Below, piece after piece: positions 3,518 through 59,147 of a stretch of 64,000 bases of DNA. Under the pieces are notes generated by a model. That model was not told where the DNA came from. It worked only from the letters and a program-made list of their open reading frames with translations, and did not search any database. The translations under genes and the position numbers were made by a program. This DNA comes from an uncultured Bacilli bacterium (GTDB taxonomy: Bacteria; Bacillota_I; Bacilli_A; RF39; UBA660): assembly GCA_947627675.1 (NCBI GenBank), contig CANQWY010000002.1, forward strand, positions 108 through 64,107. Direction: 5' to 3'. Numbering within the stretch: the first letter of the stretch is position 1; each line of letters begins with the position of its first letter.

Positions 3518-4354
3518 CTACTTTATTAGATTTTTTGATATTATAAATATCATCCTATCTCTATTTTGCATATCTTTTAAAGATATAATTTCTACATTCT
3601 TTAAATAAGTATTTATTAAGTTTACAATAGCTTCTTTTTGCTTGTATCCTATTTCAAAGGCAATCATATATTTTTCTTTTATATTTTTATTAATTGTACT
3701 TAATATTTTTTTATAATAATAAAGACCATTTTCAGGAGCAAATAAAGCAAGATGAGGTTCATTCTTTTTTACAATTTCTTCTATGTTTTCATCATAGCTT
3801 ATATATGGTGGATTACTTATTATTACATCATATCTTTTGTTTATATTTTGCAACATATCATTTTTTATAAAATCTACTTCTATATTTAGATTTTTTGAAT
3901 TTTCTTTGGCAACTTTTAAAGCTTCTTCTGATATGTCAAGTAAAGTTACTTTTGTGTTAACCTTATTTATTTTTTGTTTTAAACATAACCCTATTGCTCC
4001 ACTTCCACAACCTAAGTCTAGTATATCGATATCATAATTAAAGTATTTATTTATGTATTTTATAGTATTTTCTACTAATTCTTCTGTTTCAAAGCGGGGT
4101 ATTAAAACATTTTTATTCACAATTAATTTGTTTCCATAAAAATTCGTATAACCTAAAACGTATTGTAATGGAATATTATTTCTTATTGCTTCTATTTCCT
4201 TTTTAAAAACATTTACTTTTTCACTTTCTACTTCTAAATCCAAATGTAACAATAGCTCCAAAGGATTTAAATTCAAAAGATCACCTAATAAAATTTTTGA
4301 ATAATCTTTATGAATATATTTTTTTGAAAAGACAAGTAATTCTTCTACTGTCAT
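3518..4354 (-). CDS. prmC: Release factor glutamine N5-methyltransferase PrmC (HemK)
   Basis: DLGCGSGAIG SAM-binding motif and NPPY catalytic motif. Lies immediately downstream of prfA, as in most bacteria. Confidence 0.85.
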   Translation of the reverse strand: MTVEELLVFSKKYIHKDYSKILLGDLLNLNPLELLLHLDLEVESEKVNVFKKEIEAIRNNIPLQYVLGYTNFYGNKLIVNKNVLIPRFETEELVENTIKYINKYFNYDIDILDLGCGSGAIGLCLKQKINKVNTKVTLLDISEEALKVAKENSKNLNIEVDFIKNDMLQNINKRYDVIISNPPYISYDENIEEIVKKNEPHLALFAPENGLYYYKKILSTINKNIKEKYMIAFEIGYKQKEAIVNLINTYLKNVEIISLKDMQNRDRMIFIISKNLIK

Positions 4355-5412
4355 TAGTTTTCTCCAGCTAGTTTTCTGGCTTGGTCCTCAGTAGTTAGGG
4401 CATCTATTATACTATCTAAATCCCCATCTATTACTCTATCTAAATTTTTAGTAGTATAACCTATTCTATGATCAGTTACTCTGTTTTGTGGATAATTATA
4501 TGTTCTTATTTTTTCAGCTCGATCTCCTGTACCTATTTTACTACGTCTCTCATTTCCTTCTGCTTGCTCTTTTTTTTCTCTTTCTAATTCATAAAGTCTA
4601 GCTTTTAATACTTTCATAGCTTGTTCTTTATTTTGAATTTGACTTCTTTCATTTTGACAAGTTACAACTGTATTAGTTGGGATATGGGTTATTCTTACTG
4701 CGGAATCTGTTGTATTTACTCCCTGACCTCCACAACCTGATGAACGATATATATCTATTCTTAAGTCTGATTGTTTGATTTCTATATCTACTTCTTCTGC
4801 TTCTGGCATTACTAAAACAGTTGCGGTTGATGTTTGCAAACGGCCATTTGATTCAGTTACAGGAACTCTTTGTACTCTATGCGAACCACTTTCATATTTA
4901 AATTTACTATATGCTCCATTACCTTTTACCATAAATTCTATTTGACTATATCCACCAGCATCTCCTTCAATTGAGTTATAAACTTCATATTTAAAACCTT
5001 TTTTTTCAGCATATCTGGTATACATTCTAAATAAGTCACCAGCAAAGATATTTGCCTCATCTCCACCAGCTGCTCCTCTAATTTCTACAATAACATTTTT
5101 AGAATCATTAGGATCTTTAGGAATTAATAATATTTCAATATTTTTTTCTAAATTTTCTTTTGCTTCTTCAAGATTTGCTAATTCATCACGTACCATGTCT
5201 TCTAACTCTTTGTCTTTTAACATTTCTTTTGTATCTTCAATGTTTTTTATTATTTTTTTATATTCTTTAAATGTTTTAACTACTTCTTCTAATTCACTTA
5301 ATTCTTTAGATAGTTCCCTTGTCTTTTTTATATCACTTAATACTTCTGTATTTGTTAAAGCATTTTCTATTTCATTATATCTATTTTCTATTTGTTCCAA
5401 GTGTTCAAACAT
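4354..5412 (-). CDS. prfA: Peptide chain release factor 1
   Basis: GGQ motif ([11 protein letters not shown]) and PVT tripeptide anticodon motif. 352 aa. Confidence 0.9.
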
Positions 5413-5618
5413 ATAATCTCTCCTTTTGCTATTTTGTATTATATCATATTATTAATTATTTTTGAATATATACATATTTTAAAGAATAAAATAACATAAA
5501 GTTAATTCTTTAGTACAGCTAGAAAAATTTTTCTTATGAAATTATCTTATTAAATATCTATTAAACAAATTTATTATCAAAAAGAGAATTTTTATTTTTA
5601 TTTTTGTTTATTATTTAA

Positions 5619-7284
5619 TCACCAAACAACAAGAGAAAGACGTGAAGCATTTTGCTTATCGCCTGAACCAGTATTGTATATAAAGCCGAAAATACCATTT
5701 TGATTAATATAATTATAGGCACCGCCACAATCAAACCAAGGGTAGGTAGAATTTACAAACTTTTGATAATCTCCATAAAAGCCAGCTGTTCCATCGGCAT
5801 TTGTTGCATCTCCTTTGATTCCAGCACTGCTTGTATATAAATTATAATATTTTCTTTCTGGCATAGGATTAAATCCAGAATTATATACACTATTATTTAA
5901 GCTTCCCATTGTTTTCTCAAAAGCACCTCCTACTGTATCATATATTCCATAGATGGTTCCGGTTGTTGATGCTCCGGTTCCAGCTATTTCTTCATAATAC
6001 TGATGTTGACAACTATTACTTATACTAGCACTTGGGCTTCCTCCACTACAGCTTGTCTTAAATCCACTATAATTATTAGTATAAATCTCTTTATTAGCAT
6101 TTTTATAATTTGAATTTCCATATTTTCCATATTTACTTTGACTTAAGTATGCCATCGCTCCCCATTCCGTATTCTTTATCATATGCGTATCATAATTTTC
6201 TCCGCTTAATCCATAATTATTGGTACCGTTAGTACCGTTTATTTGGCTCTTTATGTTATTAAAAAATGATGAATGACTTTGATTTCTTATACTTGTTTGA
6301 TTAGGTAATGAAGTTATTGCACTTATTGCTCCAGTTAACTCGAATTTGCTTATCCAAATTCCTGGTAATTCTTTATTTTCTGAATTACTTCTGGTTGTTT
6401 CTACATCACAACTGTTGCCCCAACAAAATGATGAGGGTGTATAATAATTACTTGGCGTTGTTCCGGTGTATTTACCTGCTCCTTTTTCGGTTGTAGTCGT
6501 ATTTACAAATTTGATATCGAATGCTCCGGGTGTATTGATACTTGGTGATGATGCTCCTTCTATTTGATAGCCATATTGATCCCTTAATGTATAACTATAT
6601 CTTGGGATCCATACTAACATTAAGTTTACATCATTTAAATCTATTGTTGTTCCTGATGCTGCAGTTTTATATGTTGCTCTCTTAGATGGATCTTTTATCG
6701 TTACAGCATTAGCCCATATTTGTTTATCATAGTTATACCAGCTATTATTTGTATTTTCTTTATCTGCTTTTGCCCAACTACTTCCATTCCAAACTACCGG
6801 GATCATATCTCCTACTAACTCTGGTGCATTTGGTTCATTATTGTAATAGTCTTTTGTTTCTACTTTTAGTTTCCCTTTATAACTTCCTGTCCCTGTAAAT
6901 GTTATTGTTATTTGTACACTTTCTCCTACTTTTAAGTTCGCTTCTTCTATTGTTTTACTTGCTAAAGTCCCTGTTGTTGTCGTACCGTTCTTTGTATAAC
7001 TATAACTTATATTTACATCTTCTATATCTTCAACATACAGTCTATAACTTGCATCTTCTATTCCTCTATTTTCTATTGTAAATGTATATGTTTTATTTAA
7101 TTCGATATTTTCTTTATCTGAACCATTTACTCCATATATTCCTATATATCTTGTCCCTGTTTTTATTGTTATTTCTTTTTTTGTTTCTATACTCTTACTA
7201 TATTTGGCGTAAGTAACCCCCCCCCATTAGAACTATTGTTAGTATTAGGGGTATTACTAACAATATATCTTTTCTTTTTTCCAT
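5619..7284 (-). CDS. Phase-variable SipW-signal/camelysin(TasA)-like large secreted protein, copy A (OFF state as sequenced)
   Basis: ATG at 7284 with an AGGAG RBS. It encodes MEKRKDILLVIPLILTIVLMGGG and then reaches a stop 8 codons after a C9/G9 homopolymer (7217-7225). Removing one G fuses it in frame to the 395-aa ORF 5619..6806, giving about 554 aa. The N-domain resembles TasA/camelysin and the C-domain is Cys-containing and G/Y/N-rich. Confidence 0.7.
7217..7225. repeat. Poly-G/C homopolymeric tract (9 nt) inside the signal-peptide region of copy A
   Basis: taaCCCCCCCCCatt on the plus strand. A 9-mer G/C run is extremely unlikely by chance in roughly 25% GC DNA. Its position sets the reading frame. 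Confidence 0.85.
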
Positions 7285-13215: not shown

Positions 13216-13219
13216 AATT

Positions 13220-13233
13220 ATTTCCCGGGAAAT
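13220..13233. promoter_or_regulatory. Noc-binding-site-like palindrome (NBS) ATTTCCCGGGAAAT
   Basis: Exact match to the 14-bp B. subtilis NBS consensus, embedded in a 22-bp perfect palindrome AATTATTTCCCGGGAAATAATT. Confidence 0.6.
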
Positions 13234-13240
13234 AATTTTA

Positions 13241-24529: not shown

Positions 24530-25429
24530 TTATTTATCTAAATGCATTATTTCTAATAATCTATTTAAATCATTATTATTAGTAAAACTTATTTCTATTT
24601 TATTTTTCTTTATTTTTACTTTTGTACCAAGTCTTTCATTTAAACTTTCTTCAATATATTTATATGGATTTATTTTTTCTTCTTTTTTAGTAATTTTAAT
24701 CCTTTTTGGATATTCTTCATTATCTGTTGTAATACTTTCAATTTCTCTAACACTTAAGCCATCTGTTATTATTTTATCAGTTAATTCTTTTATTTGATAA
24801 ATATCATCTAATTTACTTAATACTCTTGCATGACTCATTGAAATTTTGTTTTCATTTATTAAATTTTGAGTTTCTTCTGGTAAATTCAAAAGTCCTAAAA
24901 TATTTGTAACATGAGATCTACTTTTTCCTAGTCTTGATGCTAATGTCTCCTGAGTTATATTTAAATTTTTTATTAAATTTTCATATGCTTTTGCTTCTTC
25001 TATTGCAGTTAGGTTTTCTCTTTGTAAATTTTCTAATAAAGCTATCTCCATCATTTCTGAATCTGAAAAATCTTTAACAATAGCTGGAATTTCTTCTAAA
25101 CCAGCTAGTAGGGATGCTTTAACTCTTCTTTCACCTGCAATTATTTCATAACCTTTAATACTTTTTTTGGCAATAATTGGCTGAAATACACCATGTTCTT
25201 TAATAGAAGCTGCTAATTCTTCTAATTTTTCTTCATCAAATACTTTTCGTGGCTGATATGGATTACTTCTTAATTCTTTTAATGGAATTTTTACGATTTC
25301 TTCTTTTGGAGTCTGCTCAATTATTTTTTCTTCAACTCTTGTATAATCGATTGGTTCACTATTAAATAATTCTTCTAGTCCTTTACCTAAGGCTTTTCTT
25401 TTAATATTATTCTGTTCCATTTCTATCAA
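24530..25429 (-). CDS. parB: Chromosome partitioning protein ParB/Spo0J
   Basis: ParB box II GERRVKAS, HTH region and C-terminal dimerisation domain. 299 aa. Immediately downstream of parA/soj. Confidence 0.85.
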   Translation of the reverse strand: MIEMEQNNIKRKALGKGLEELFNSEPIDYTRVEEKIIEQTPKEEIVKIPLKELRSNPYQPRKVFDEEKLEELAASIKEHGVFQPIIAKKSIKGYEIIAGERRVKASLLAGLEEIPAIVKDFSDSEMMEIALLENLQRENLTAIEEAKAYENLIKNLNITQETLASRLGKSRSHVTNILGLLNLPEETQNLINENKISMSHARVLSKLDDIYQIKELTDKIITDGLSVREIESITTDNEEYPKRIKITKKEEKINPYKYIEESLNERLGTKVKIKKNKIEISFTNNNDLNRLLEIMHLDK

Positions 25430-26195
25430 TCACTTCCTTTGCAAGATTTATATATGCTTCTGAACCTCTGCTTTTTGGATCGTAAGCAATAATTGGTTCA
25501 CCATGTGATGGTGCTTCTGTTAATCTTATTAGTCTAGGAATTATTGTATTATAAACTTTTTCTTTAAAAAATTTACGAATATCATCTACTACTTCAAATC
25601 CTAAATTTGTTCGCGAATCTAACATAGTTAATAAAACTCCTTCTATTTGAAGTGTAGGATTTAACGTTTTTTGAGCAAGCATTATAGTATTTAATAATTG
25701 CATTATTCCCTCTAATGCAAAAAATTCACATTGAACTGGTATAATAACAGAATCTGAAGCTGTTAAAGCATTAGTTGTAATTAAACCAAGAGAAGGAGGA
25801 CAATCAATTATAATATAATCAAATTGATTCTTTATTTTATCTAAGTTAATTTTTAATTGATTTCCTTTTTGATATCCAGGTTCTTGTTGACTTTTTTCTA
25901 AAAGTTCTATATCAAGGCCTGCTAAATTTATCGTTGCTGGCATTACTTGTAAATTTTTATATTTTGTTTTAATTATAGCTTTTTCTATACTACATTTTCC
26001 TATTAAAACGTCATATATGCTTTTATCAATATCAGCTTTATTTATTCCTACACCTGTTGTTGTATTACCCTGAGGATCTAAGTCTATTAATAAGACTTTT
26101 TTTCCTAATACTGCAAGAGATGCAGAAAGATTTATACTTGTAGTTGTTTTGCCTACGCCACCTTTTTGATTTACTAGTGCTATTGTCTTTCCCAT
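25407..26195 (-). CDS. parA: Chromosome partitioning ATPase ParA/Soj
   Basis: Deviant Walker A KGGVGKTT. 262 aa. Confidence 0.9.
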   Translation of the reverse strand: MGKTIALVNQKGGVGKTTTSINLSASLAVLGKKVLLIDLDPQGNTTTGVGINKADIDKSIYDVLIGKCSIEKAIIKTKYKNLQVMPATINLAGLDIELLEKSQQEPGYQKGNQLKINLDKIKNQFDYIIIDCPPSLGLITTNALTASDSVIIPVQCEFFALEGIMQLLNTIMLAQKTLNPTLQIEGVLLTMLDSRTNLGFEVVDDIRKFFKEKVYNTIIPRLIRLTEAPSHGEPIIAYDPKSRGSEAYINLAKEVIDRNGTE

Positions 26196-26310: not shown

Positions 26311-27804
26311 CTAGTAATTACTGTTTTTATCTATTCTTATTAATATTTGATATTGATTTTCAAAATTCATTTCATCAGTATCTATCTTAGCACCATGAAG
26401 TTCTAAGTTTTTTAAGGTTTTTCGTATTTCATCTACTATTTGTCTAATATTATATTCTTCTTCTCCATTCCTTTTATTATTATTTAAATTTTCATCCATT
26501 AGAACATTACCTAAAGATTTATTAGACTTATTTATTTTTTGTTCTTCTTTTATTGGTTTTTGAAATAATGTTTGGTTGATATCCACTAATGACTCTTTAT
26601 GGTCAGTAGTTGGCTTTGATGATTTAGCAAATTCTATTAAACTATTATTAGAAGCTGCTTGATTACTAAACATATCTCCAAGGTCTGATTTAGGTATTTC
26701 GCCTGTATTAGGTAACTCTATTGACATCAAATTAGGAGCTGAAAAATAATCTTCTTTGTTATTATAATTTTTATTTTCGCTTTCTCTCAATGCTTCTTCA
26801 GCTGGAGTAAATTTTTTATTATCTTCATTATTATCATTAACAAAAGTAGGTTTAATATTTAGTAAAGTATCTAAATCTGATTTATTATTAGATTCTGTTT
26901 TTGAATCTATTGAAGAATTTATATCTTCTAAATCTTTAGTATTGTTTCTTAAATCCATTAAATTTATCGGTTTAGATAGAAGTGAAGAATTGTCACCATT
27001 TAAATCAGGATATTTTTCATTTTCTTCTTCTTCATTATCAATTTCACCATAATTTATTATTTCGCTATTTTTAGAATCATTAGGAGGAGTCATTAAAAAA
27101 CTTGGCATCTTATTTAGATTATTACTTTCTATTGAAACTGGTGTTGGGTTTATGAGATTTTTTAAATCTTTTTCATCTTTTATCTTATCATCATTCATAT
27201 TAATTTCCTTTATCTCATTTTCTAATTGTCTTACTGTCATCTTTTGTTTTATCACTTTTTTTAACATTTCTACTTGTTTATCATGATCATTCAAATTTAG
27301 TAAAGTCCTAGCATGTCTCTCTGAAATTTCTTCTTTCAGTAAAGATTTTTGAACCTCTTCTGTCAAAGAAAGTAACCTTAATTTATTTGCAACTGCTGAC
27401 TGGCTTTTACCCATAGTTTTAGCTAAACCCTCTTGTGTCATATCATCAAGTTCTATTATTTTTTGATATGTTCTAGCTTCTTCTATTGGATTTAAATTTC
27501 TTCGTTGTAAATTTTCCAATAATGCTACTTTAGCAGCTTCCTTATCATCTAAATTTCTAATTATCGCAGGTATTGTTGTTAATCCAGCAAGTGCAGATGC
27601 TTTATATCTTCTTTCACCTGCAATTATTTCATATTTACTCTCACTTATTTTCCTTACTATTATAGGTTGTATAACACCATGTTCTTTGATAGATACTGCT
27701 AATTCTTTCAAAGCTTTTTCATCAAAGAGTTCACGAGGTTGAAATCTATTAGGTATTATATCATCCAGATGTATATATATTACTTCCTGATTATCATTCA
27801 TCAA
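26311..27804 (-). CDS. noc: Noc-like ParB paralog with long low-complexity C-terminal extension
   Basis: ParB N-domain with GERRYKAS box II and an HTH. It occupies the noc position (rsmG-noc-soj-spo0J order). 497 aa, with an N/D/E/K/S-rich tail of about 300 aa. It has no N-terminal amphipathic-helix extension. Confidence 0.65.
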   Translation of the reverse strand: MMNDNQEVIYIHLDDIIPNRFQPRELFDEKALKELAVSIKEHGVIQPIIVRKISESKYEIIAGERRYKASALAGLTTIPAIIRNLDDKEAAKVALLENLQRRNLNPIEEARTYQKIIELDDMTQEGLAKTMGKSQSAVANKLRLLSLTEEVQKSLLKEEISERHARTLLNLNDHDKQVEMLKKVIKQKMTVRQLENEIKEINMNDDKIKDEKDLKNLINPTPVSIESNNLNKMPSFLMTPPNDSKNSEIINYGEIDNEEEENEKYPDLNGDNSSLLSKPINLMDLRNNTKDLEDINSSIDSKTESNNKSDLDTLLNIKPTFVNDNNEDNKKFTPAEEALRESENKNYNNKEDYFSAPNLMSIELPNTGEIPKSDLGDMFSNQAASNNSLIEFAKSSKPTTDHKESLVDINQTLFQKPIKEEQKINKSNKSLGNVLMDENLNNNKRNGEEEYNIRQIVDEIRKTLKNLELHGAKIDTDEMNFENQYQILIRIDKNSNY

Positions 27805-27921: not shown

Positions 27922-28143
27922 TTATCTTATTCGTACATTACTATTTTCTAATTCATCTATATCAATAGAATCAGATATATTATTTTTATATGTACTATTT
28001 TTTAATTGTTCTTCTTTATACTTTTTATAATATTCCGAAAGCTCATATAATGATAATCCTGTACTTTGGGCTAGTGTTTCCATATCAACATTTCCTGATT
28101 CAAAACAAGTTTTTATATATTGTATTACTGTTTCTTCTTTCAT
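27922..28143 (-). CDS. Small hypothetical protein (HTH-like)
   Basis: 73-aa ORF between noc-like gene and rsmG. No family recognised. Confidence 0.3.
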   Translation of the reverse strand: MKEETVIQYIKTCFESGNVDMETLAQSTGLSLYELSEYYKKYKEEQLKNSTYKNNISDSIDIDELENSNVRIR

Positions 28144-34439: not shown

Positions 34440-34660
34440 TAATAATTATTAACTTATATAATATAGTTATATGTTTTCCACATAATTAACATACTTGTGT
34501 ATATCTTTTTTTTAACTGTTTATAAAAAAAATTGTGGAAAATGTGGATAAGTTGTTTTTTCTTTTATGAAACAATATTATCTTTTGTGGAAAAAATTGTG
34601 AATTACTTGTGGATTAAATTTTTTATTATTTTTTTATTTATTTTTTCCACAAATTGATTT
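34440..34660. promoter_or_regulatory. oriC upstream DnaA-box cluster (rpmH-dnaA intergenic)
   Basis: Perfect TGTGGATAA at 34543-34551, plus at least 5 one-mismatch boxes (TGTGGAAAA twice, TGTGGATTA, TTTTCCACA twice) in both orientations. Confidence 0.75.
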
Positions 34661-34701
34661 ATTATAATTGTTATATAAGTTGCTTGGAGGGAGATGGTTG
34701 A

Positions 34702-36060
34702 ATGAATGTTGAGGTCCTATGGACCAACTTTTTACAAAAGATAAAAGAAGAACTATCTTCTCTAGCATTTGATACTTGGTTTAAAGATACAAAACTCTTT
34801 AAATTAGAAAATAATAAAGCTATTATTGTTGTTCCTATGCCTATTCATAAAAAGCATTTATCGGATAATTATGAAGAACAAATAAAGTTTATTTTAAATA
34901 CTATTACTGGTAATAATTATGATATCGAATTTTTTTTAGAAGAAGAAATAAAAGAAAGTACTATCAAACAACAAATAGAAGACATTCCTACTAATAAAGT
35001 TGATAATAAAATTAACAACAATCTAAATAGTAAATACTCATTTGAAAATTTTATAGTTGGAAATAGTAATAAATTTGCTCAAGCCGCAGCCTTATCGGTT
35101 GCTGAAAACCCTGGAAAAATGTATAATCCACTATTTATATATGGAAATAGCGGACTTGGAAAAACACATTTAATGCATGCTATTGGTAATTATATCGTTA
35201 AAAATAGCAATAAAAGAGTTTTATATGTAACAAGTGATCAATTTATCCAAGATTTTATCGGTATTAATAAAAAAGATAATACTGGAACAAATTTTAATTA
35301 TGTTGACTTTTTTAAAAACAAATATAGAAATGTTGATGTTTTAATAATAGATGATATTCAATTTCTAGGTGGTGCTACTCAAACTCAGCAGGAATTTTTC
35401 CATACATTTAATACTTTATATAGTGACTCTAAGCAAATAATTATTTCATCTGATAGATCACCTGATGATTTAAAACTTCTAGAAGATCGTCTTAGAACTC
35501 GATTTTGTTGGGGACTTACTGTTAACATTTTTCCTCCAGATTTTAATCTTAGAGTAGAAATTATCAAAAGAAAAATAATAGCTGGTAATTTTGAAAAAGA
35601 AATACCAGAAGATGTTATAGAATATATCGCTTCTAATATGGGAAATGATGTTAGACAATTAGAGGGATCTATAACAAGGCTCGTTGCCTATTCTGCTATT
35701 ATGGGGGGAACCTCAATTACATTGTCTCTTGCAATTGAAGCCTTAAAAGATTTTATAAGTAAAGGCATTAGTGAAAAAAACGATATTCATAGAATACAAA
35801 AAGTAGTTGCAGAATTTTTTCAAATTAGTGTTGAAGATATTAGAAGTAAAAAAAGAAGTAGTAATATTGCATTTCCAAGACAAATAGCAATGTATTTATG
35901 TAGAAACATAACCAATGAATCTTTTCCTAAAATAGGAACAGAATTTGGAGGCAAAGATCATTCTACTGTTATGCACTCAGTAGAAAAAATATCTCAAGAA
36001 ATAAAAGTTAATAAAGATTTAGATAATATAATAGAAAAATTAAAAAAAGATATTGGCTGA
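34702..36060 (+). CDS. dnaA: Chromosomal replication initiator DnaA
   Basis: 452 aa. AAA+ Walker A GNSGLGKTHL. C-terminal DnaA-box-binding domain. Confidence 0.95.
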   Translation: MNVEVLWTNFLQKIKEELSSLAFDTWFKDTKLFKLENNKAIIVVPMPIHKKHLSDNYEEQIKFILNTITGNNYDIEFFLEEEIKESTIKQQIEDIPTNKVDNKINNNLNSKYSFENFIVGNSNKFAQAAALSVAENPGKMYNPLFIYGNSGLGKTHLMHAIGNYIVKNSNKRVLYVTSDQFIQDFIGINKKDNTGTNFNYVDFFKNKYRNVDVLIIDDIQFLGGATQTQQEFFHTFNTLYSDSKQIIISSDRSPDDLKLLEDRLRTRFCWGLTVNIFPPDFNLRVEIIKRKIIAGNFEKEIPEDVIEYIASNMGNDVRQLEGSITRLVAYSAIMGGTSITLSLAIEALKDFISKGISEKNDIHRIQKVVAEFFQISVEDIRSKKRSSNIAFPRQIAMYLCRNITNESFPKIGTEFGGKDHSTVMHSVEKISQEIKVNKDLDNIIEKLKKDIG

Positions 36061-36202
36061 TATGTGGATATTTTCATTAATAAACTTTTTTTTCCACAAA
36101 CTATTTTTAAAAAAAATATTTATAAAATATGAAAAAATATTGTTTTCCACATTTTCCACAGTTATAATAATAATATCTATAAAAAAGAAAGAAGGAATAT
36201 AG
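36061..36202. promoter_or_regulatory. oriC downstream DnaA boxes + AT-rich unwinding region (dnaA-dnaN intergenic)
   Basis: TGTGGATAT at 36063, TTTTCCACA three times (36090, 36144, 36153), and a run of more than 90% AT between them. Confidence 0.7.
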
Positions 36203-43767: not shown

Positions 43768-43840
43768 AAGTAATCATTTTTATTATATTAGTACATTTGA
43801 AATAATATAAATATTAGTTATTAGTTTACAAATAAGTAAA

Positions 43841-43885
43841 ATTGGCATACTTAAAAAGATCTAAATGGTATTTGGCATTGTCAAT
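43841..43885. repeat. Conserved ~45-bp motif, copy 1 (ATTGGCATACTTAAAAAGATCTAAATGGTATTTGGCATTGTCAA)
   Basis: About 80% identical to a second copy at 44615..44662. Function unknown. Confidence 0.4.
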
Positions 43886-44005
43886 TTTTGCAGGCTTCAA
43901 AGAAAAAACTCTTTTTAAGAGTAAATCTATTATAAACAAATGTTCTATTAAATTAAATTGATTTTCTAATTTACTTAGCAAAAATATCTTATATTTTATT
44001 TCTAT

Positions 44006-44034
44006 CTCATTATGAAAATAATTTTCATAATGAG
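44006..44034. promoter_or_regulatory. 29-bp perfect palindrome CTCATTATGAAAATAATTTTCATAATGAG (possible 7-1-7 Fur-family-like operator)
   Basis: Perfect inverted repeat. The inner TGAAAAT-A-ATTTTCA resembles the Fur-family 7-1-7 box TGATAAT-N-ATTATCA with one mismatch per half. Confidence 0.3.
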
Positions 44035-44614
44035 AAAATAGCTATAACATGGATGTATGAATTTTCATAATTTTAAATAAATATTAAATTTTTTTTATTA
44101 TGTTCCTACCACATAACATAATAAAAATCCCTGTTATGCTGGTGATAGTTGAAGAAGTGATAGCATTAGTGAAAAAACTAAATCACCTTTTGATATAATA
44201 GATAATGGTTTGCCAATCAAAATCTAAAATCAGAGGAGAATTTATTTTAGAGGCAAAAAAATGATAAAAGTTCATTTTTTCATGCGAGATGGAATTGTCA
44301 ATATCACCATGTATTATTAAATATACTCCAATATCTCTAATAAATTTTCTATATATTACCTTTCTTCTATATTTTGGTGTGAAGGCTATGTGAATATAAA
44401 GTAGTTGTAATAGTAAAAGTGCGGCATATCCAGATCATTATACATATGTTAGTAAAAATTCCACTAAAATTAGTGTATTATCTTTTATGAAATATTTAAA
44501 GGATAAGAATAGATAGATCAAATATATATGATTAAGATTTGGAAGATAAAATAAAAGATTAAAGAAGTTAGAATGAATAGACATGTTTACGGGTAAGTAA
44601 TAGTGACAAAGATA

Positions 44615-44662
44615 ATTGGTATATTAAAAAAGCTCTAAATGGTAGCTGGCACTGTCAAACTT
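44615..44662. repeat. Conserved ~45-bp motif, copy 2
   Basis: AATTGGTATATTAAAAAAGCTCTAAATGGTAGCTGGCACTGTCAAA aligns with copy 1. Confidence 0.4.
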
Positions 44663-44764
44663 TAATATAATAAATGAAATTGAGATGTTTTCATTGAATT
44701 ATATAGATATATTAATCATAATTTTATATGAATCTATAAATTATGTACAATATATAATTAAGTA

Positions 44765-45335
44765 AATTATTTCCCGGGAAATAATTTAAAACTTTTTATT
44801 TATAGAAATTTCAAATTTTAATTTTTTAATTAAAAATAATTTGATAACATTTTTTAAGAAATTAATTCATTTATAAAAATATTATCATTATTTAGTATTA
44901 ATAAAAAATATAAACTCAAACTTGATATTTTTTAAAGATTAACGTTTCACGTGAAACATTGTATTTTTTTCTTATTCTTATCATTAAATTTTTTTAGGAT
45001 ATTATTTCCCGGGAAATAATTTAAAACTTTTTATTTATAGAAATTTCAAATTTTAATTTTTTAATTAAAAATAATTTGATAATATTTTTTAAGAAATCAA
45101 TTCATTTATAAAAATATTATCATTATTTAGTATTAATAAAAAATATAAATTCAAACTTGATATTTTTTAAAGATTAACGTTTCACGTGAAACATTGTATT
45201 TTTTTCTTATTCTTATTATTAAGTTTTTTTAGGATATTATTTCCCGGGAAATAATTTAAATAATTATAATGTTTCACGTGAAACATAAAGAAATAAGCAG
45301 TTATTAAATAAAAAAAATATTTCCCGGGAAATATT
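44765..45335. repeat. 235-bp direct tandem repeat (2 full units + partial) carrying alternating NBS and parS palindromes
   Basis: NBS ATTTCCCGGGAAAT at 44769, 45004, 45239 and 45319. parS at 44943 and 45178 (CGTTTCACGTGAAACA, 15/16) and at 45270 (TGTTTCACGTGAAACA, 16/16). Unit period is exactly 235 bp with near-identical units. Confidence 0.85.
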
Positions 45336-45391
45336 TTGAAATAGATAATATAAATAAATTGCTTTTTTTAATAGTTTATTATAAAATGTAA

Positions 45392-45473
45392 TCGTGCAAT
45401 AAATTTATGTGGAAACAGGTCAGGATCGGAAGATAGCAGCCTTAACACAATAGATTTATGTGCACTTTTTTTT
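45392..45473 (+). ncRNA. ffs: Signal recognition particle RNA (small 4.5S-type SRP RNA)
   Basis: Conserved domain IV sequence CAGGUCAGGAUCGGAAGAUAGCAGCC flanked by a pairing helix (GTGCAATAAATTTATGTGG / CACAATAGATTTATGTGCAC) and a T8 run. Located next to tadA and dnaX, as in Bacillus. Confidence 0.6.
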
Positions 45474-45482
45474 GGAGGAAAT

Positions 45483-45929
45483 ATGAAAGAAAAATATATG
45501 CTTATTGCTATCGCAGAAGCAGAAAAAGCTTTAAAATTAGGTGAAGTACCTGTGGGTGCTGTAATTGTAAAAGATGATAACATTATATCAAAAGCTTATA
45601 ATAAAAAAGAAAAAAATCAAATGGTTACTTCACATGCAGAAATTTTAGCAATAGAAAAAGCTTCAAAAAAACTAAAAAATTGGCGTTTAGAAGATTGTGA
45701 GCTATATGTTACTTTAGAACCTTGTCCTATGTGTGCTAGTGCAATAAAACAATCCAGAATTAAAAAAATTTATTATGGCCTAAGCAATAGCGATAAAAAT
45801 AATAGAAAAATAATTGAGCTGATTTTACAGAAAGATTATGTTAATCCTGAAGTACAAATAAATAACGGATATTTTTCAAAACAAATAAATAAATTGTTAA
45901 GTAATTTTTTTAGAGATATAAGAAAATAA
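45483..45929 (+). CDS. tadA: tRNA-specific adenosine deaminase
   Basis: HAEILAI and PCPMCA zinc-binding motifs. 148 aa. Confidence 0.9.
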   Translation: MKEKYMLIAIAEAEKALKLGEVPVGAVIVKDDNIISKAYNKKEKNQMVTSHAEILAIEKASKKLKNWRLEDCELYVTLEPCPMCASAIKQSRIKKIYYGLSNSDKNNRKIIELILQKDYVNPEVQINNGYFSKQINKLLSNFFRDIRK

Positions 45930-45987
45930 TGTATATTTAGATAAAATTTTGATATAATTTAATCTGTTAGGTTGGTGAAATAAATAT

Positions 45988-47649
45988 ATGTATCAAACGT
46001 TATATAGAAAATATAGATCTAAAAAATTTTCTGAACTAGTTGGACAAGACGTTATTGTTAAAACATTAAAAAACTCTATAAAAAACGAAAAAATTTCACA
46101 TGCATATTTATTTGTAGGTCCACGAGGAACAGGAAAAACTTCAACTGCTAAAATATTCGCGAGAGCTGTAAATTGCTTAGATAATGATGCTGGAGAAATT
46201 TGCGGAAAATGTTCTATGTGCAATATATCAAATAGTAGCGAATGTTTAGATATTATAGAAATAGATGCTGCTTCTAATAATGGTGTAGATGAAATAAGAA
46301 ATTTAAGAGATAAAGTTAATTTAGTTCCTAATCAACTTAAATATAAAGTATATATTATTGATGAAGTACATATGTTAACTATCCAAGCTTTTAATGCTTT
46401 ATTAAAAACACTGGAAGAACCACCAGAACATATTATATTTATATTGGCAACTACTGATATACAAAAAGTTCCGGAAACTATTATATCTAGATGTCAATGT
46501 TTTAATTTTTCTAGAATGACACAACAAAATATAATAGATAATTTATCTAAAATATGTAATGAGGAAAAAATTAATATAGATTTAGAAGTACTAAAGCAAA
46601 TTTCATTAGCTGCTGATGGCGGAATGAGAGATGCACTGAGTATTTTAGATAAGTTAATTTCATATGGTGAAGATAATATAAAATTAGATGATTTTTTACA
46701 ACTTAATGGTCTAGTTACAGTAACTGAAATAGAAAGTTTTATAAACTATATTTTTTCTAAGGACGTAAAAAATGTTATTGATCAAATATGCGATTGGAAT
46801 TTAAAAGGTAAAAATTTAATTCAAATTATGATGCAATCATTAGAATATTTAAAGGATAAATTAATTAGAGCATATACAGATAATAATGATATTAATACTA
46901 ATAAATATCAAATGCTTGCAAATTTATTGAATGAAAAAATGATAAATATTAAAAAAAGTTCTAATCCTAATATTTATATTGAAATTATTCTTTTAGATTT
47001 TATTTCTTCACTTAATAATGAGTTAAATATTTCCCGGGAAATAATTCCAGAAAAAAGTTCGAGTGATAATAATGTTTCACGTGAAACATTATTAGAATCA
47101 AAAAATACAATTAACTACAAACAAATAGAAAAAAAAGATATTACTAACTCTTTAGATGAACAAAATAGTAATATAAGAGATATAATGAATGTTAGAATAA
47201 ATAATACTTTTATAGATGCAACAAAAAACGAACTAAAACAAATGATAAATGAATTTAGTAAATTAAATGATTATGTTTTTGATCAAAATATTGGTTATTT
47301 AGTTTGTGCATTATTAGAAGGAAAGATTAGATTAAGTAGTTCTGAATATATAGTAATAAGTTATGAATATGACTCAGTAGTAAGTACAAATATTGTTAAT
47401 TATCAGAAAATGGAATCTGTTTTAAAAGATATACTTAATATAAATAAAAAAATTGCAATTATTTCTGATTCTGATTGGAATAAGGTTGCAAAAGATTTTA
47501 TAGAAAATAAGAAAAATAACATTAGTTATGAATATATAGAAGAACCAGAACTATTGTTTGATAAAACAAAAAAAATAGAAAATAATACAAATAATAAAAA
47601 TAATGATAGCATTTCAGATGTATTTGGTGATATAGTAGAAATATACTAA
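45988..47649 (+). CDS. dnaX: DNA polymerase III subunit tau (single-product, gamma/tau)
   Basis: AAA+ GPRGTGKTS. Zinc module CGKCSMC. 553 aa. Position before ybaB-recR. Confidence 0.9.
   Translation: MYQTLYRKYRSKKFSELVGQDVIVKTLKNSIKNEKISHAYLFVGPRGTGKTSTAKIFARAVNCLDNDAGEICGKCSMCNISNSSECLDIIEIDAASNNGVDEIRNLRDKVNLVPNQLKYKVYIIDEVHMLTIQAFNALLKTLEEPPEHIIFILATTDIQKVPETIISRCQCFNFSRMTQQNIIDNLSKICNEEKINIDLEVLKQISLAADGGMRDALSILDKLISYGEDNIKLDDFLQLNGLVTVTEIESFINYIFSKDVKNVIDQICDWNLKGKNLIQIMMQSLEYLKDKLIRAYTDNNDINTNKYQMLANLLNEKMINIKKSSNPNIYIEIILLDFISSLNNELNISREIIPEKSSSDNNVSRETLLESKNTINYKQIEKKDITNSLDEQNSNIRDIMNVRINNTFIDATKNELKQMINEFSKLNDYVFDQNIGYLVCALLEGKIRLSSSEYIVISYEYDSVVSTNIVNYQKMESVLKDILNINKKIAIISDSDWNKVAKDFIENKKNNISYEYIEEPELLFDKTKKIENNTNNKNNDSISDVFGDIVEIY
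47029..47088. promoter_or_regulatory. NBS (47029-47042) + perfect parS (47073-47088) pair embedded in-frame in the dnaX coding sequence
   Basis: ATTTCCCGGGAAAT and TGTTTCACGTGAAACA (inside the 26-bp perfect palindrome AATAATGTTTCACGTGAAACATTATT), separated by 30 bp. Encodes ...NISREIIPEKSSSDNNVSRETLL... in the variable linker of tau. Confidence 0.75.
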
Positions 47650-57329: not shown

Positions 57330-57600
57330 TACTGATTTAAATGTATAGAAGAAGAGGTTATTATACTGATAATTTAAGAGAGTTTCTGGTTGGTGAAAAG
57401 AAATATTATTGTTTAATAATTATGGCTTTGGAACTATTATATTGATATGTAAATATAATCGTATATAGGCGTTAACTATTTGAGTGTATAATAAAGTTAT
57501 TATAAAGTAAGGTGGTACCACGGATTTAGATTCGTCCTTATATGTTATAATGACTTTTTATTTTTATAAATAAGCATAATATTAAATTTAGATTAAAAAA
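57330..57600 (+). promoter_or_regulatory. T-box riboswitch leader of metG
   Basis: T-box consensus AGGTGGTACCACGG at 57510-57523, followed by U-rich terminator/antiterminator region. About 300-nt leader. Confidence 0.6.
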
Positions 57601-57626: not shown

Positions 57627-59147
57627 ATGAAAAAAAAATTTTATATTAGTACAGCAATTGCATATACTACATTTAAACCACATATAGGAAATACTTATGA
57701 AGTTGTTTTAGCAGATAGTATTGCTAGATTTAAAAGATTGCAAGGATATGATGTTTATTTTCAAACAGGTACTGACGAACACGGTAATAAAATTCAAGAA
57801 AAAGCCGAAGAAAAAGGCATTAGTCCTAAAGAATATGTTGATAATATTTCAAATGAAATTAAAAAAATTTGGGATTTGATGGATACTAGTTATGATAAGT
57901 TTGTAAGAACAACAGATGAACATCATGAACAAATAGTAAAAAAGATATTTAAAAAAATGTATGATAAAGGTGATATTTATAAAGGAGAATATAAAGGACT
58001 TTATTGTACTCCTTGCGAATCATTTTGGACAGAATCTCAATTAGATGATAATGGTTGTTGCCCTGATTGTGGAAGAGAAGTAAAAGAAGCAAAAGAAGAA
58101 GCCTATTTTTTTAAACTTTCTAAGTATCAAGATAGATTACTAAAATATATTGAAGAAAATCCAGATTTTATTCAACCTTCATCTAGAAAAAATGAAATGA
58201 TAAATAACTTTCTAAAACCTGGTTTACAAGATTTATGTATAACTAGAACTAGTTTTGATTGGGGAATACAAATTGATTTTGATCCTAAACATGTTATATA
58301 TGTCTGGCTTGATGCTTTAACTAATTATATTACTAACATAGGATATGATCCTGATGGATCAAGTGACGAATTTGCTAAGTATTGGCCATGTGATATCCAT
58401 TTAATAGGAAAAGATATTATTAGATTTCATGCAATTTATTGGCCTTGTTTTTTATGGAGTCTTGACTTACCTCTTCCAAAAAAAGTCTTTGGACATCCTT
58501 GGCTTTTAATGAATAATGATAAAATGAGCAAAAGTAAAGGTAATGTGATATATGCTGATTCTTTAGTTGAGAAGTATGGAGTAGATGCAGTTCGCTATTA
58601 TTTATTACATGAAATTCCATATTCAAGTGATGGAAATATTAGTTATTCCCTAATAGAAGAAAGAATTAATAGTGATCTTGCAAATATTTTAGGTAATCTA
58701 GTTCAAAGAACAATTTCGATGGGAAACAAATATTTTAATTGTATTATTGTAAATAAAGAAATAACAGACAAATTAGATTCAGAATTTATTAATAAAATAA
58801 ATCAGTTAAATGAAAAAGTTTGCTCTGATATGGATTCACTACATATTGCTAATAGTATTGATGATATATTCAATTTATTAAGAGATAGTAATAAATATAT
58901 TGATGAAACAATGCCTTGGAACCTTGCAAAAGATGACAACAAAAAAGATAGATTAGAAACTGTAATTTATAATTTATTAGAGTCTATTAGAGTATGTGGA
59001 TTATTACTTAGTTCATATATGCCTAGTACAAGTAAAAAAATTCTAAAACAATTAAATAATAATAGAAATGAGCTTAATTATGTTAAAGATAATCAATATA
59101 AATTGAATAATCCAGAACCACTTTTCATGAGGATTACAAATAAATAG
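57627..59147 (+). CDS. metG: Methionine--tRNA ligase (short form)
   Basis: Class I HIGH (KPHIGNTYEV) and KMSKS motifs. Zinc knuckle CTPCE...CPDCG. 506 aa. Confidence 0.9.
   Translation: MKKKFYISTAIAYTTFKPHIGNTYEVVLADSIARFKRLQGYDVYFQTGTDEHGNKIQEKAEEKGISPKEYVDNISNEIKKIWDLMDTSYDKFVRTTDEHHEQIVKKIFKKMYDKGDIYKGEYKGLYCTPCESFWTESQLDDNGCCPDCGREVKEAKEEAYFFKLSKYQDRLLKYIEENPDFIQPSSRKNEMINNFLKPGLQDLCITRTSFDWGIQIDFDPKHVIYVWLDALTNYITNIGYDPDGSSDEFAKYWPCDIHLIGKDIIRFHAIYWPCFLWSLDLPLPKKVFGHPWLLMNNDKMSKSKGNVIYADSLVEKYGVDAVRYYLLHEIPYSSDGNISYSLIEERINSDLANILGNLVQRTISMGNKYFNCIIVNKEITDKLDSEFINKINQLNEKVCSDMDSLHIANSIDDIFNLLRDSNKYIDETMPWNLAKDDNKKDRLETVIYNLLESIRVCGLLLSSYMPSTSKKILKQLNNNRNELNYVKDNQYKLNNPEPLFMRITNK

What the first reader, a model, noticed from the sequence alone, without database searches (positions are those of the whole stretch)
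44765..45335. Tandem 235-bp array interleaving perfect Noc-binding sites and parS sites near the origin
The array carries four exact copies of ATTTCCCGGGAAAT (the 14-bp Noc-binding consensus defined in B. subtilis). They alternate, at fixed phase, with three copies of the ParB/Spo0J site TGTTTCACGTGAAACA (two 15/16, one 16/16) inside nearly identical 235-bp direct repeats. The array lies about 1 kb downstream of gyrA in an otherwise gene-free stretch. Each unit's sites are embedded in longer perfect palindromes of 22-26 bp. A regular tandem arrangement that juxtaposes both sites is, as far as I know, undescribed. It suggests a compound centromere-like or organising element, or co-recruitment of the two ParB paralogs encoded 18 kb away in this same window.
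Basis: partly seen in the sequence, partly recalled or inferred. Interest (0 to 1): 0.8.

Follow-up and report, generated by a model that had tools for sequence, protein, structure and literature searches.

The report
Interleaved ParB and Noc-type binding sites
About 10 kb from the replication origin, this gut bacterium carries a cluster that mixes docking sites for its chromosome-partition protein ParB with docking sites for a Noc-like sister protein; the same mixed cluster sits at the same spot in well over a hundred related uncultured species, which suggests a two-protein centromere that I could not find described in the papers searched.

Summary
The window holds four exact 16-bp NBS sites (TATTTCCCGGGAAATA) and three parS sites at 44768-45333. 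Part of this stretch is a 235-bp unit repeated 2.1 times, about 10 kb right of oriC. A further NBS+parS pair lies inside dnaX.

The 235-bp duplication is the least important part, because another assembly of the same organism has one unit fewer. The conserved feature is a mixed NBS/parS cluster in the gyrA-(SRP RNA/tadA)-dnaX interval.
- It appears in about 116 of 120 species-level genomes found by a site-pair search.
- In an independent sample chosen only by GyrA homology, 30 of 41 complete intervals hold both site types, 10 hold parS only and none is empty.
- NBS-parS spacing shows a roughly 10.5-bp periodicity near half-turn phase, in both samples.

The neighbouring rsmG-noc-parA-spo0J operon encodes a Noc ortholog with invariant NBS-type specificity residues (Q173, K179, R201). 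It lacks Noc's N-terminal membrane helix and carries a clade-specific disordered insert of about 230 aa.

Best reading: a composite centromere that co-loads two ParB-family CTP clamps. No binding has been tested. I rate it a new variant of a known kind.

The parts
44758..45260 (.). 235-bp direct repeat, 2.1 copies (units 44758-44992 and 44993-45227, plus a partial third). Each unit carries one NBS and one parS.
   Evidence: Another assembly of the same organism (L001) has exactly one unit fewer.
44768..44783 (.). NBS 1, exact TATTTCCCGGGAAATA, centre of a 26-bp perfect palindrome (44763-44788)
44943..44958 (.). parS 1, CGTTTCACGTGAAACA (15/16)
45003..45018 (.). NBS 2, exact, within a 20-bp perfect palindrome
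45178..45193 (.). parS 2, 15/16
45238..45253 (.). NBS 3, exact
45270..45285 (.). parS 3, 16/16, within an 18-bp palindrome (45269-45286)
45318..45333 (.). NBS 4, exact, within a 24-bp palindrome (45314-45337), about 57 bp upstream of the SRP RNA gene
47028..47088 (.). Second NBS (47028-47043) and parS (47073-47088, 16/16) pair, inside the dnaX coding sequence. Both lie in the same reading frame (N-I-S-R-E-I and N-V-S-R-E-T).
   Evidence: An NBS at the equivalent dnaX codon (about 346-379) is present in 18 other species.
13219..13234 (.). Solitary exact NBS in a convergent intergenic gap, about 21 kb left of oriC
26311..27804 (-). Noc ortholog, long form (496-497 aa). It has the ParB N domain with GERR and ENLQR CTP motifs. 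Its HTH carries Q173, K179, S184 and R201. It has no N-terminal amphipathic helix, a disordered insert of about 230 aa with conserved short motifs, and a Noc-type C-terminal domain.
25407..26195 (-). ParA/Soj ATPase
24530..25429 (-). Spo0J/ParB. It has the N-terminal LGKGL peptide and specificity residues R173, I179, N184 and S201. The true start is probably the ATG at 25420.
34474..36160 (.). oriC: DnaA-box clusters on either side of dnaA (34474-34651 and 36063-36160). This places the array about 10 kb to the right of the origin.

Best explanation
The 44.77-45.33 kb stretch is this organism's version of a clade-wide composite centromere. It is the origin-proximal cluster of parS sites, in the gyrA-dnaX interval, where Spo0J/ParB nucleates. 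Sites for the sister protein encoded in the same operon are interspersed among them.

Proposed mechanism.
1. Spo0J dimers nucleate on A-TGTTTCACGTGAAACA-T, bind CTP, close into clamps and slide onto flanking DNA. This gives the ParA-driven partition and SMC-loading complex (family knowledge; inferred here).
2. Dimers of the Noc ortholog nucleate on the adjacent TATTTCCCGGGAAATA sites through Q173, K179 and R201, and load as CTP clamps in the same way. The CTP motifs are intact; loading is inferred.
3. The two kinds of loading site lie 22-130 bp apart, whereas ParB-family spreading covers kilobases. Both clamp populations must therefore occupy the same few kb and form one mixed nucleoprotein complex.
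4. The roughly 10.5-bp periodic NBS-parS spacing is centred near half-integral turns (about 26, 36, 47, 57 and 68 bp). This suggests that neighbouring nucleation complexes sit on opposite helical faces, so that both can be occupied at once.
5. The Noc ortholog lacks the N-terminal membrane helix that nucleoid occlusion needs in B. subtilis. Instead it has a long disordered insert with invariant short motifs. It most likely acts as an adaptor that gives the centromere an extra function (tethering, positioning or regulation through an unknown partner), not as a genome-wide occlusion factor.

The 235-bp tandem duplication is simply how such clusters grow and shrink.
For: Shown.
- The sites are real and far above chance.
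- Every parS in the 64-kb window has an NBS within 60 bp centre to centre (32-60 bp), including an independent pair inside dnaX.
About 116 of the hits are the orthologous gyrA-dnaX interval of low-GC uncultured gut Bacilli, including Ca. Onthousia.
- In 67 loci with both anchor genes, the interval holds 204 NBS and 296 parS in 123 kb, against 12 and 3 in 398 kb of flanks.
- In the unbiased sample chosen by GyrA alone, 30 of 41 complete intervals hold both site types, 10 hold parS only, 1 holds NBS only and 0 are empty. The intervals hold 63 NBS and 153 parS in 118 kb, against 5 and 2 in 332 kb of flanks. Of 98 NBS, 52 have a parS within 40 bp.
- Thirty-three loci have tandem units carrying both sites, with periods of 62-474 bp and up to 13 copies. 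The spacer sequences of the different arrays were not compared directly.
- No third conserved motif exists; only SRP RNA k-mers are shared.
- Spacing periodicity: R=0.28 at 10.75 bp, n=294. It survives spacer de-duplication with jitter-null p=0.0005. It is replicated in the unbiased set with R=0.41, phase 4.8 of 10.5 and p about 1e-5. Same-type next-neighbour spacings have phase about 0.
- Protein: the best PDB hits are Noc. It scores 294.9 bits against TIGR04285, and its C-terminal domain matches model positions 202-255. GKSQSAVANKLRLL[S/A/T]L...ISERHAR is invariant in 35 homologs of 55-100% identity.
- Jalal et al. 2020 (PMC7383237) show that Q173 and R201 switch specificity to NBS and that a single K at position 179 or 184 suffices.
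- The rsmG-noc-parA-spo0J operon is conserved.
Against: - No binding data exist for either protein in this clade.
- A quarter of unbiased relatives have parS-only clusters, and others have a single NBS at the edge of a parS run. Interleaving is therefore not obligatory. The excess of N/P alternation over random order is modest: 125 switches against 111.5 expected, p=0.009.
- I could not show that loss of NBS tracks loss or change of the Noc ortholog.
- The window's own spacings (32, 45, 48, 60 and 175 bp) do not sit cleanly on the preferred phase.
- Phylogenetic non-independence inflates the periodicity statistics.
- The genome-wide NBS distribution is unknown. Solitary NBS occur in flanks at about 1 per 33-66 kb, similar to B. 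subtilis and S. aureus densities. The protein may therefore also act chromosome-wide.
- A membrane-binding element hidden in the insert cannot be excluded.
Confidence: 0.6

Rival explanations
1. Canonical nucleoid occlusion. The protein is an ordinary Noc that tethers DNA to the membrane and blocks Z-ring assembly. The array is just an unusually strong Noc loading hub that happens to lie beside the parS cluster, and many more NBS are scattered round the chromosome.
For: The sequence is closest to Noc structures, the gene sits at the canonical rsmG-noc-soj-spo0J position, and the C-terminal domain is Noc-type. Solitary NBS exist away from the cluster (13219 in the window; 12 in 398 kb and 5 in 332 kb of flanks), a density like B. 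subtilis or S. aureus.
Against: All 35 aligned homologs start about 22 residues later than B. subtilis and G. thermoleovorans Noc, so helices alpha1 and alpha2, including the membrane-targeting helix, are absent. Stop codons lie immediately upstream of the start. A Noc lacking that helix is impaired in occlusion (PMC8429893). NBS density in the interval is about 55 times that of the flanks and is tied in helical phase to parS, which occlusion does not explain. No NBS occurs in the 21.5 kb left of oriC in a relative.
Confidence: 0.15
2. Insulator or roadblock. NBS-bound Noc-like dimers serve mainly to confine or shape ParB spreading. One example would be protecting the adjacent SRP RNA, tadA and dnaX promoters from ParB coating. 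Another would be trapping ParB clamps in a compact, dense focus.
For: The sites lie directly between and around the parS sites. The last NBS is about 57 bp upstream of the SRP RNA gene. Some relatives have a single NBS at the edge of a parS run, e.g. 'NPPPPPP'. That DNA-bound proteins block sliding ParB clamps rests on my own knowledge of the family; the term 'roadblock' did not occur in the one paper I searched for it.
Against: A CTP-clamp protein leaves its loading site after closing, so it makes a poor static roadblock. Strictly alternating arrays of 6-13 units are hard to explain as boundaries. The long conserved insert with invariant motifs suggests partner recruitment instead of passive blocking.
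Confidence: 0.1
3. Neutral hitch-hiking. NBS and parS are each functional in their ordinary, separate ways. They are juxtaposed only because tandem duplication in a recombination-prone AT-rich spacer copies whatever lies there.
For: The window's own array is a 97-98% identical duplication that is absent from another assembly. Arrays often sit at contig ends. Unit lengths vary widely. One quarter of relatives lack NBS in the interval.
Against: Duplication cannot create the first juxtaposition. Pairs also occur in non-repetitive clusters and inside dnaX. Arrays with many different unit lengths (62-474 bp) all carry both sites. NBS-parS spacing is helically phased in two independent samples, while directly adjacent same-type (N-N, P-P) spacings show no such periodicity. 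Fifty-three percent of NBS in the unbiased set lie within 40 bp of a parS.
Confidence: 0.1
4. One protein binds both motifs (a dual-specificity Spo0J), or the palindromes are targets of something else such as a restriction-modification system or a transcription factor.
For: The window's Spo0J has S at position 201, a residue common in dual-specificity variants in the deep mutational scan. CCCGGG and CACGTG are classic restriction sites (my own knowledge).
Against: Spo0J has R173 and no K or R at positions 179 or 184, which the scan associates with parS specificity. S201 is lineage-specific, since a relative has canonical G201. All 6 CCCGGG in the window are embedded in the full 16-mer with conserved AT flanks to 22-24 bp, and the parS flanks are 95-97% conserved. 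That is far beyond a hexamer target. A dedicated paralog with invariant NBS-type residues is encoded in the same operon.
Confidence: 0.05

Closest known systems
Noc-NBS nucleoid occlusion system of Bacillus subtilis and Staphylococcus aureus
   Same: The 16-bp site is identical (TATTTCCCGGGAAATA). The protein is ParB-family and sits in the same rsmG-noc-soj-spo0J position. It has intact GERR and ENLQR CTP motifs, NBS-type residues Q173, K179 and R201, and a Noc-type C-terminal domain.
   Different: It has no N-terminal amphipathic membrane-targeting helix. It has a clade-specific disordered insert of about 230 aa: only 54 cluster representatives among 1.84 billion proteins match the insert plus C-terminal domain. 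Its sites are concentrated and interleaved with parS at one locus. In B. subtilis (about 70 sites, from my own knowledge) and S. aureus (41 loci) they are scattered over the origin-proximal part of the chromosome.
Chromosomal ParABS centromeres with clustered parS (B. subtilis origin-proximal parS; multi-parS clusters in Caulobacter, Myxococcus, Corynebacterium, from my own knowledge)
   Same: There are several consensus parS sites within about 1-2 kb, roughly 10 kb from oriC. ParA and ParB are encoded nearby. ParB has the N-terminal LGKGL peptide.
   Different: The parS sites are interspersed, often one for one and in helical phase, with sites for a second ParB-family paralog. No parS lies inside spo0J.
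RacA-ram system of sporulating B. subtilis (my own knowledge)
   Same: It works in a similar way: a second, separate set of GC-rich palindromes concentrated round the origin recruits a dedicated protein that gives the origin region an extra attachment function.
   Different: The protein family is unrelated (RacA is not ParB-like). The ram sites are spread over a much wider origin region (my own knowledge) and are not interleaved with parS. No CTP clamp is involved.
Composite plasmid or prophage centromeres built from two motif types (e.g. P1 parS BoxA/BoxB, my own knowledge)
   Same: Two different short motifs are arranged at fixed spacing to build one partition complex.
   Different: There both motifs are read by one ParB through two domains. 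Here each motif is apparently read by its own paralog, and the element is chromosomal.

Membership tests
Noc-NBS nucleoid occlusion system | ParB-family protein with CTP-binding N-terminal domain motifs (GERRxR, ENLQR) | tested here: met
   Pfam ParB_N and HTH_ParB. G62-E63-R64-R65 and E96-N97-L98-Q99-R100 are invariant in 35 homologs.
Noc-NBS nucleoid occlusion system | NBS-type specificity residues at positions 173, 179, 184 and 201 (QKKR in Noc, RTAG in ParB) | tested here: met
   Q, K, S/A/T and R are invariant across the clade. PMC7383237 reports that one K at 179 or 184 is sufficient. Three of the four residues match.
Noc-NBS nucleoid occlusion system | N-terminal amphipathic membrane-targeting helix (first ~10 residues; alpha1-alpha2 within the first ~26) | tested here: not met
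   Query residue 4 aligns to residue 24-26 of the Noc structures. All homologs start M-x4-EV..LHLDDIIPNRFQPR. In-frame stop codons lie directly upstream.
Noc-NBS nucleoid occlusion system | Curated NCBIfam equivalog score (TIGR04285, cut-off 315 bits) | tested here: not met
   294.9 bits for residues 7-230. The C-terminal domain alone adds 18.7 bits against model positions 202-255. The total is just under the cut-off, and the model is split by the insert.
Noc-NBS nucleoid occlusion system | Gene between rsmG (gidB) and soj-spo0J | tested here: met
   Window; relatives L122 and L123.
Noc-NBS nucleoid occlusion system | NBS scattered over the origin-proximal chromosome and absent near the terminus | tested here: inconclusive
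   Only origin-proximal DNA was available. The sites are about 55-fold concentrated in one 1-2 kb interval, with sparse solitary sites in the flanks.
Noc-NBS nucleoid occlusion system | Protein binds NBS, spreads with CTP, and recruits DNA to the membrane | not testable with these tools
   Needs biochemistry or ChIP.
Chromosomal ParABS centromere | Consensus 16-bp parS palindromes close to oriC | tested here: met
   Four parS at 0-1 mismatch lie 10-12.5 kb from the DnaA-box clusters. All 41 unbiased relatives but one have parS in the same interval.
Chromosomal ParABS centromere | ParA ATPase and a ParB with R173, the HTH domain, the C-terminal dimerisation domain and the N-terminal ParA-interacting peptide | tested here: met
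   (ParB_N, HTH_ParB, ParB_C at 23.6 bits, just under its 23.8-bit cut-off; KRKALGKGLEELF peptide).
Restriction-modification target sites | The short core (CCCGGG or CACGTG) is the conserved unit, and occurs irrespective of flanks | tested here: not met
   All 6 CCCGGG lie in the full 16-mer. Flanks are conserved to 18-24 bp across 120 species.
Simple tandem (minisatellite-like) duplication | Head-to-tail near-identical units, with copy number variable between isolates | tested here: met
   2.1 copies at 97-98% identity. L001 has one unit fewer, although assembly collapse cannot be excluded.

The most novel reading that the evidence does not exclude
In this clade the centromere is a true two-component kinetochore. 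ParB and a membrane-helix-less Noc ortholog nucleate side by side on opposite faces of the helix and interact physically. They form one mixed CTP-clamp complex, and the disordered insert of the Noc ortholog recruits a partner (a pole or membrane anchor, or division or replication machinery). This would be a living example of an alternative, possibly ancestral, job for Noc at the centromere, distinct from genome-wide nucleoid occlusion.
Probability: 0.3. Interest if true: 0.85.

Novelty: new variant of a known kind. Interest (0 to 1): 0.7.

Why it matters
ParB and Noc are the textbook pair for how a duplicated DNA-binding protein gains a new specificity and a new job. In the model organisms their sites and functions are spatially separate.

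Here nature has placed the two site types next to each other, in helical register, at the centromere of a large group of uncultured, reduced-genome gut Bacilli. The Noc ortholog in these organisms has lost the one feature needed for nucleoid occlusion.

If the inference holds, three consequences follow.
- It gives a natural system for asking how two CTP clamps that differ at two DNA positions load, slide and avoid or exploit each other on the same DNA.
- It suggests a centromere-associated role for Noc-type proteins, which bears on how Noc evolved from ParB.
- It supplies ready-made array designs (62-130-bp units) for the ParB/Noc-based DNA-labelling tools already in use (PMC11109969 and PMC11798528, listed).

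Tried and rejected
- Restriction-site idea: rejected.
- A third conserved motif in the arrays: a k-mer enrichment over 121 loci found only SRP RNA words. DnaA boxes were not enriched.
- A structured RNA in the interval: Rfam at permissive threshold found only the SRP RNA.
- Promoter-like sites in 43.7-45.5 kb: no more than in shuffles.
- Hybrid half-site palindromes (NBS half plus parS half): none in the window.
- Measured fitness of the exact residue combinations QKSR and RINS in the supplements of Jalal 2020: not held.
- Domain or solved-structure match for the insert and C-terminal domain: nothing in Pfam or PDB. Only the Noc model's C-terminal end matched.
- AlphaFold2 of the Noc ortholog: low confidence overall (pLDDT 60). 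It was used only to mark the folded N-terminal core, the disordered insert and the helix-hairpin C-terminal domain. No fold search was run.
- Linking a Noc-ortholog contig (L122) to one of the gyrA loci, to pair protein and array in one genome: no near-identical overlap found.
- Position 201 of Spo0J as a clade-wide oddity: rejected, because L122 has the canonical G.
- L123 could not be read in the script sandbox, so its sites and its Spo0J were not checked.
Full report
**1. What is in the window.**
Reading 44000-46200 and motif searches confirm the reported sites.
- Four exact NBS sites start at 44768, 45003, 45238 and 45318. Each is the full 16-mer TATTTCCCGGGAAATA.
- Three parS sites start at 44943 and 45178 (CGTTTCACGTGAAACA, 15/16) and at 45270 (16/16).
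- Dinucleotide-preserving shuffles of the whole window give 0.13 NBS-like matches (up to 2 mismatches) and 0.28 parS-like matches (up to 3 mismatches). Six and four were found.

The repeat is a 235-bp unit in 2.1 copies at 97-98% identity. The distal NBS-parS-NBS triplet (45238, 45270, 45318) lies outside that register.

An NBS (47028) and a perfect parS (47073) lie 45 bp apart inside dnaX, and a solitary NBS lies at 13219. Every parS in the 64 kb therefore has an NBS within 60 bp centre to centre.

All six CCCGGG hexamers in the window (0.27 expected) lie inside full NBS sites. This rules out a hexamer-level restriction-site explanation.

**2. Context.**
The GC-skew minimum and two DnaA-box clusters flanking dnaA (34474-34651 and 36063-36160) place oriC about 10 kb left of the array.

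Gene order is rnpA-yidC-jag-mnmE-mnmG-rsmG-[Noc-like]-parA-spo0J on the left arm and dnaA-dnaN-recF-gyrB-gyrA-[array]-SRP RNA-tadA-dnaX-ybaB-recR-bofA on the right arm.

The 'gene-free' kilobase between gyrA and the array contains a decayed, internally rearranged IS200-like transposase relic. An intact 155-aa Y1_Tnp ORF sits at the same place in relative L072.

**3. The duplication is recent and not fixed.**
A second assembly that encodes identical TadA, DnaX, YbaB and RecR (L001) is base-for-base identical through the region, except that it has exactly one 235-bp unit fewer. This is either real copy-number polymorphism or repeat collapse in one assembly. Either way, the 235-bp periodicity is not the conserved feature.

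**4. The conserved feature.**
I scanned one genome per species (GTDB representatives) for NBS-N(17-47)-parS.

blastx against the window's ORFs shows that essentially all hits are the orthologous gyrA-(tadA)-dnaX interval. GyrA identity to the window is 55-88%. The records are low-GC (23-31%) uncultured gut MAGs with closed chromosomes of about 1.3-1.5 Mb. They are labelled Bacilli, Erysipelotrichaceae, Tenericutes, Mycoplasma or Ca. Onthousia (Bacilli incertae sedis).

Many hits carry long, strictly alternating arrays, for example:
- L093: 83 bp x 13 copies
- L037: 125 bp x 10.7 copies
- L108: 127 bp x 7.3 copies
- L036: 84 bp x 5.8 copies

In all, 33 of 122 loci have tandem units that carry both sites, with periods of 62-474 bp. 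Several arrays are cut by contig ends or split between two contigs of one MAG, so these copy numbers are lower bounds.

In the 67 loci that contain both anchor genes, the interval (median 1.35 kb) holds 204 NBS and 296 parS in 123 kb. The flanks hold 12 NBS and 3 parS in 398 kb.

**5. An unbiased sample.**
The first sample was selected for having a pair. I therefore fetched 80 further loci from metagenomes by GyrA homology alone (72-83% identity).
- Of 41 complete gyrA-dnaX intervals, 30 have both site types, 10 have parS only, 1 has NBS only and none is empty.
- The intervals hold 63 NBS and 153 parS in 118 kb. The flanks hold 5 NBS and 2 parS in 332 kb.
- Architectures range from PNPNPNPNPN to NPPPPPP and PPPPPPP.
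- After dropping duplicate architectures, 52 of 98 NBS have a parS within 40 bp.
- N/P alternation exceeds random order only modestly (125 switches against 111.5 expected, p=0.009).

The parS cluster at this locus is thus universal in the clade. NBS co-residence is frequent (about three quarters of intervals) but not obligatory.

**6. Site anatomy and spacing.**
Logos over 390 NBS and 472 parS sites show recognition beyond 16 bp. The extended forms are AAA-w-TATTTCCCGGGAAATA-w-TTT and A-TGTTTCACGTGAAACA-T, with the flanking A and T at 95-97%. No third conserved motif exists in the clusters.

NBS-parS centre-to-centre distances are periodic.
- Peaks lie near 25-27, 35-37, 45-49, 57-58 and 68-70 bp.
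- In the first sample, counting each distance once per locus, R=0.28 at 10.75 bp (n=294).
- After collapsing similar spacers, R=0.22 (n=236), and a +/-5-bp jitter null gives p=0.0005.
- The unbiased sample replicates this: R=0.41 at 10.5 bp, phase 4.8 bp, p about 1e-5, n=66.

The phase is close to half a turn. Same-type next-neighbour distances (N-P-N and P-N-P) have phase about 0 at 10.5 bp, weakly (p=0.03 and 0.003). Directly adjacent P-P and N-N pairs show no periodicity, though n is small.

My reading, which is an inference, is that the two kinds of nucleation complex tend to lie on opposite faces of the helix. Two caveats apply: related species are not independent, and the window's own spacings (32, 45, 48, 60 bp) are not exemplary.

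**7. The proteins.**

*Spo0J-like (24530-25429, minus strand).* It has the N-terminal KRKALGKGLEELF peptide and the ParB_N, HTH and ParB_C domains. Its specificity residues are R173, I179, N184 and S201.

*Noc-like (26311-27804, minus strand).*
- Its best PDB matches are Noc structures: 222 bits to G. thermoleovorans Noc and 190 to B. subtilis Noc, against 179 to Spo0J.
- It scores 294.9 bits on TIGR04285 (cut-off 315).
- It reads GKSQSAVANKLRLLSL...ISERHAR, that is Q173, K179, S184 and R201.
- Jalal et al. 2020 showed that these four positions encode parS versus NBS specificity (RTAG versus QKKR). Q173 and R201 read the two differing bases, and a single lysine at 179 or 184 is sufficient.
- In 35 homologs of 55-100% identity, Q, K and R are invariant and position 184 is S, A or T.

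*Departures from Noc.*
- Every homolog begins about 22 residues later than Noc, so the amphipathic membrane-targeting helix is missing. In the window, in-frame stop codons lie directly upstream of the start. Deleting that helix impairs nucleoid occlusion in B. subtilis (PMC8429893).
- A disordered insert of about 230 residues sits between the HTH domain and a C-terminal domain that still matches positions 202-255 of the Noc model.
- The insert carries invariant short motifs (NYGE, DLDSLLN, PAEEALRESE, DYFxAPxLM, SLIDF, SLGxALMxE).
- The insert-plus-CTD module is rare. It matches 54 cluster representatives out of 1.84 billion at E up to 1e-3; the full-length forms are 443-545 aa.

The rsmG-noc-parA-spo0J-mscS operon is conserved in two relatives. 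One of them has no NBS or parS at all in the 21.5 kb around the operon and oriC.

**8. Interpretation.**
The simplest account of all this is a composite centromere. The parS cluster loads Spo0J/ParB clamps, and the interspersed NBS load clamps of the Noc ortholog. Loading sites are tens of base pairs apart, while spreading in this family covers kilobases (8-10 kb for S. aureus Noc). The two proteins must therefore share the same DNA.

Without its membrane helix, and with a motif-bearing disordered arm, the Noc ortholog looks more like an adaptor attached to the centromere than a genome-wide occlusion factor.

What is shown:
- the sites, their conservation, their enrichment and their spacing;
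- the specificity residues;
- the missing helix.

What is inferred:
- who binds what;
- co-occupancy of neighbouring sites;
- the function of the complex.

The rivals are canonical occlusion, an insulator or roadblock role, neutral hitch-hiking and a single dual-specificity binder. They are weighed in the structured fields. None explains the combination of conserved co-location, helical phasing and loss of the membrane helix as well. The parS-only lineages and the sparse solitary NBS keep them alive.

**9. Comparison and novelty.**
The parts are known kinds: parS/ParB and NBS/Noc. In B. subtilis and S. aureus the NBS are scattered over the origin-proximal half or two thirds of the chromosome (41 loci in S. 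aureus).

Three searches of the held literature found no report of NBS interleaved with parS, nor of a Noc lacking its membrane helix. The library is incomplete, so this is absence of evidence.

I rate the finding a new variant of a known kind. I rate interest at 0.7. A ParB/Noc specialist would be surprised by the phased co-location and the helix-less Noc, and the hypothesis can be tested with synthetic genes alone. No binding has been shown, however, and the window's own array is a modest example.

Noticed in passing
window 43840-44663: The 'gene-free' DNA between gyrA and the array is a decayed IS200-like (Y1_Tnp) transposase relic with an internal inverted piece (44318-44392 on the minus strand). 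It is bracketed by 50-nt direct repeats at 43840-43889 and 44614-44663 (82% identical). Relative L072 has an intact 155-aa tnpA at 5328-5795 in the same interval.
   Followed up: yes
window 47028-47088 (inside dnaX, 45988-47649): The NBS and the parS lie in the same reading frame of the DnaX linker and encode N-I-S-R-E-I and N-V-S-R-E-T. An NBS at the equivalent codon (about 346-379) is present in 18 other species, so a protein-binding palindrome has been maintained inside a coding sequence.
   Followed up: partly
window 24530-25429 (-): The Spo0J/ParB has serine at specificity position 201. Jalal et al. 2020 report glycine as absolutely conserved there in ParB orthologs, and S/T as typical of dual-specificity variants. 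Relative L122 has the canonical glycine, so this is lineage-specific.
   Followed up: partly
window 27922-28143 (-): A small 73-aa ORF (MKEETVIQYIKTCFESGNVDMETLAQSTGLSLYELSEYYKKY...) fills the 430-bp gap between rsmG and the Noc ortholog. The gap is only about 110 bp in L122, so the ORF is not conserved there. In L123 an IS110-family transposase sits at this position.
   Followed up: no
L197-L203 (metagenome loci, GyrA about 74% identical): One human-gut lineage has 6-8 parS and no NBS in the gyrA-dnaX interval. Whether it has lost or changed the Noc ortholog could not be checked. It is the natural negative control.
   Followed up: no
L097 (Synergistaceae MAG, GC 0.60), 4184-7203: NBS-like and parS-like sites lie next to a ParB-family gene in a non-Firmicute, high-GC genome. 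Noc is thought to be confined to Firmicutes. This may be chance or a convergent paralog.
   Followed up: no
L090/L095, L006/L020, L016/L055, L057/L078: Each pair of contigs comes from one MAG. In L090/L095 the gyrA side and the dnaX side each end in an array at or near a contig end, so the array appears to break the short-read assembly. The other pairs may be similar, though in L078 the sites lie about 4 kb from dnaX. True copy numbers are probably higher than observed.
   Followed up: partly
window 57337-57542 and 45390-45471: A T-box leader lies upstream of the ORF at 57627-59147. The small SRP RNA gene lies immediately downstream of the array, and the last NBS is about 57 bp upstream of it.
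   Followed up: no
L122 30-485: A ComK-family gene sits next to dnaN in a relative. Together with bofA in L001, the other assembly of the window's organism (6120-6305, after recR), this hints that these reduced genomes keep remnants of competence and sporulation genes.
   Followed up: no
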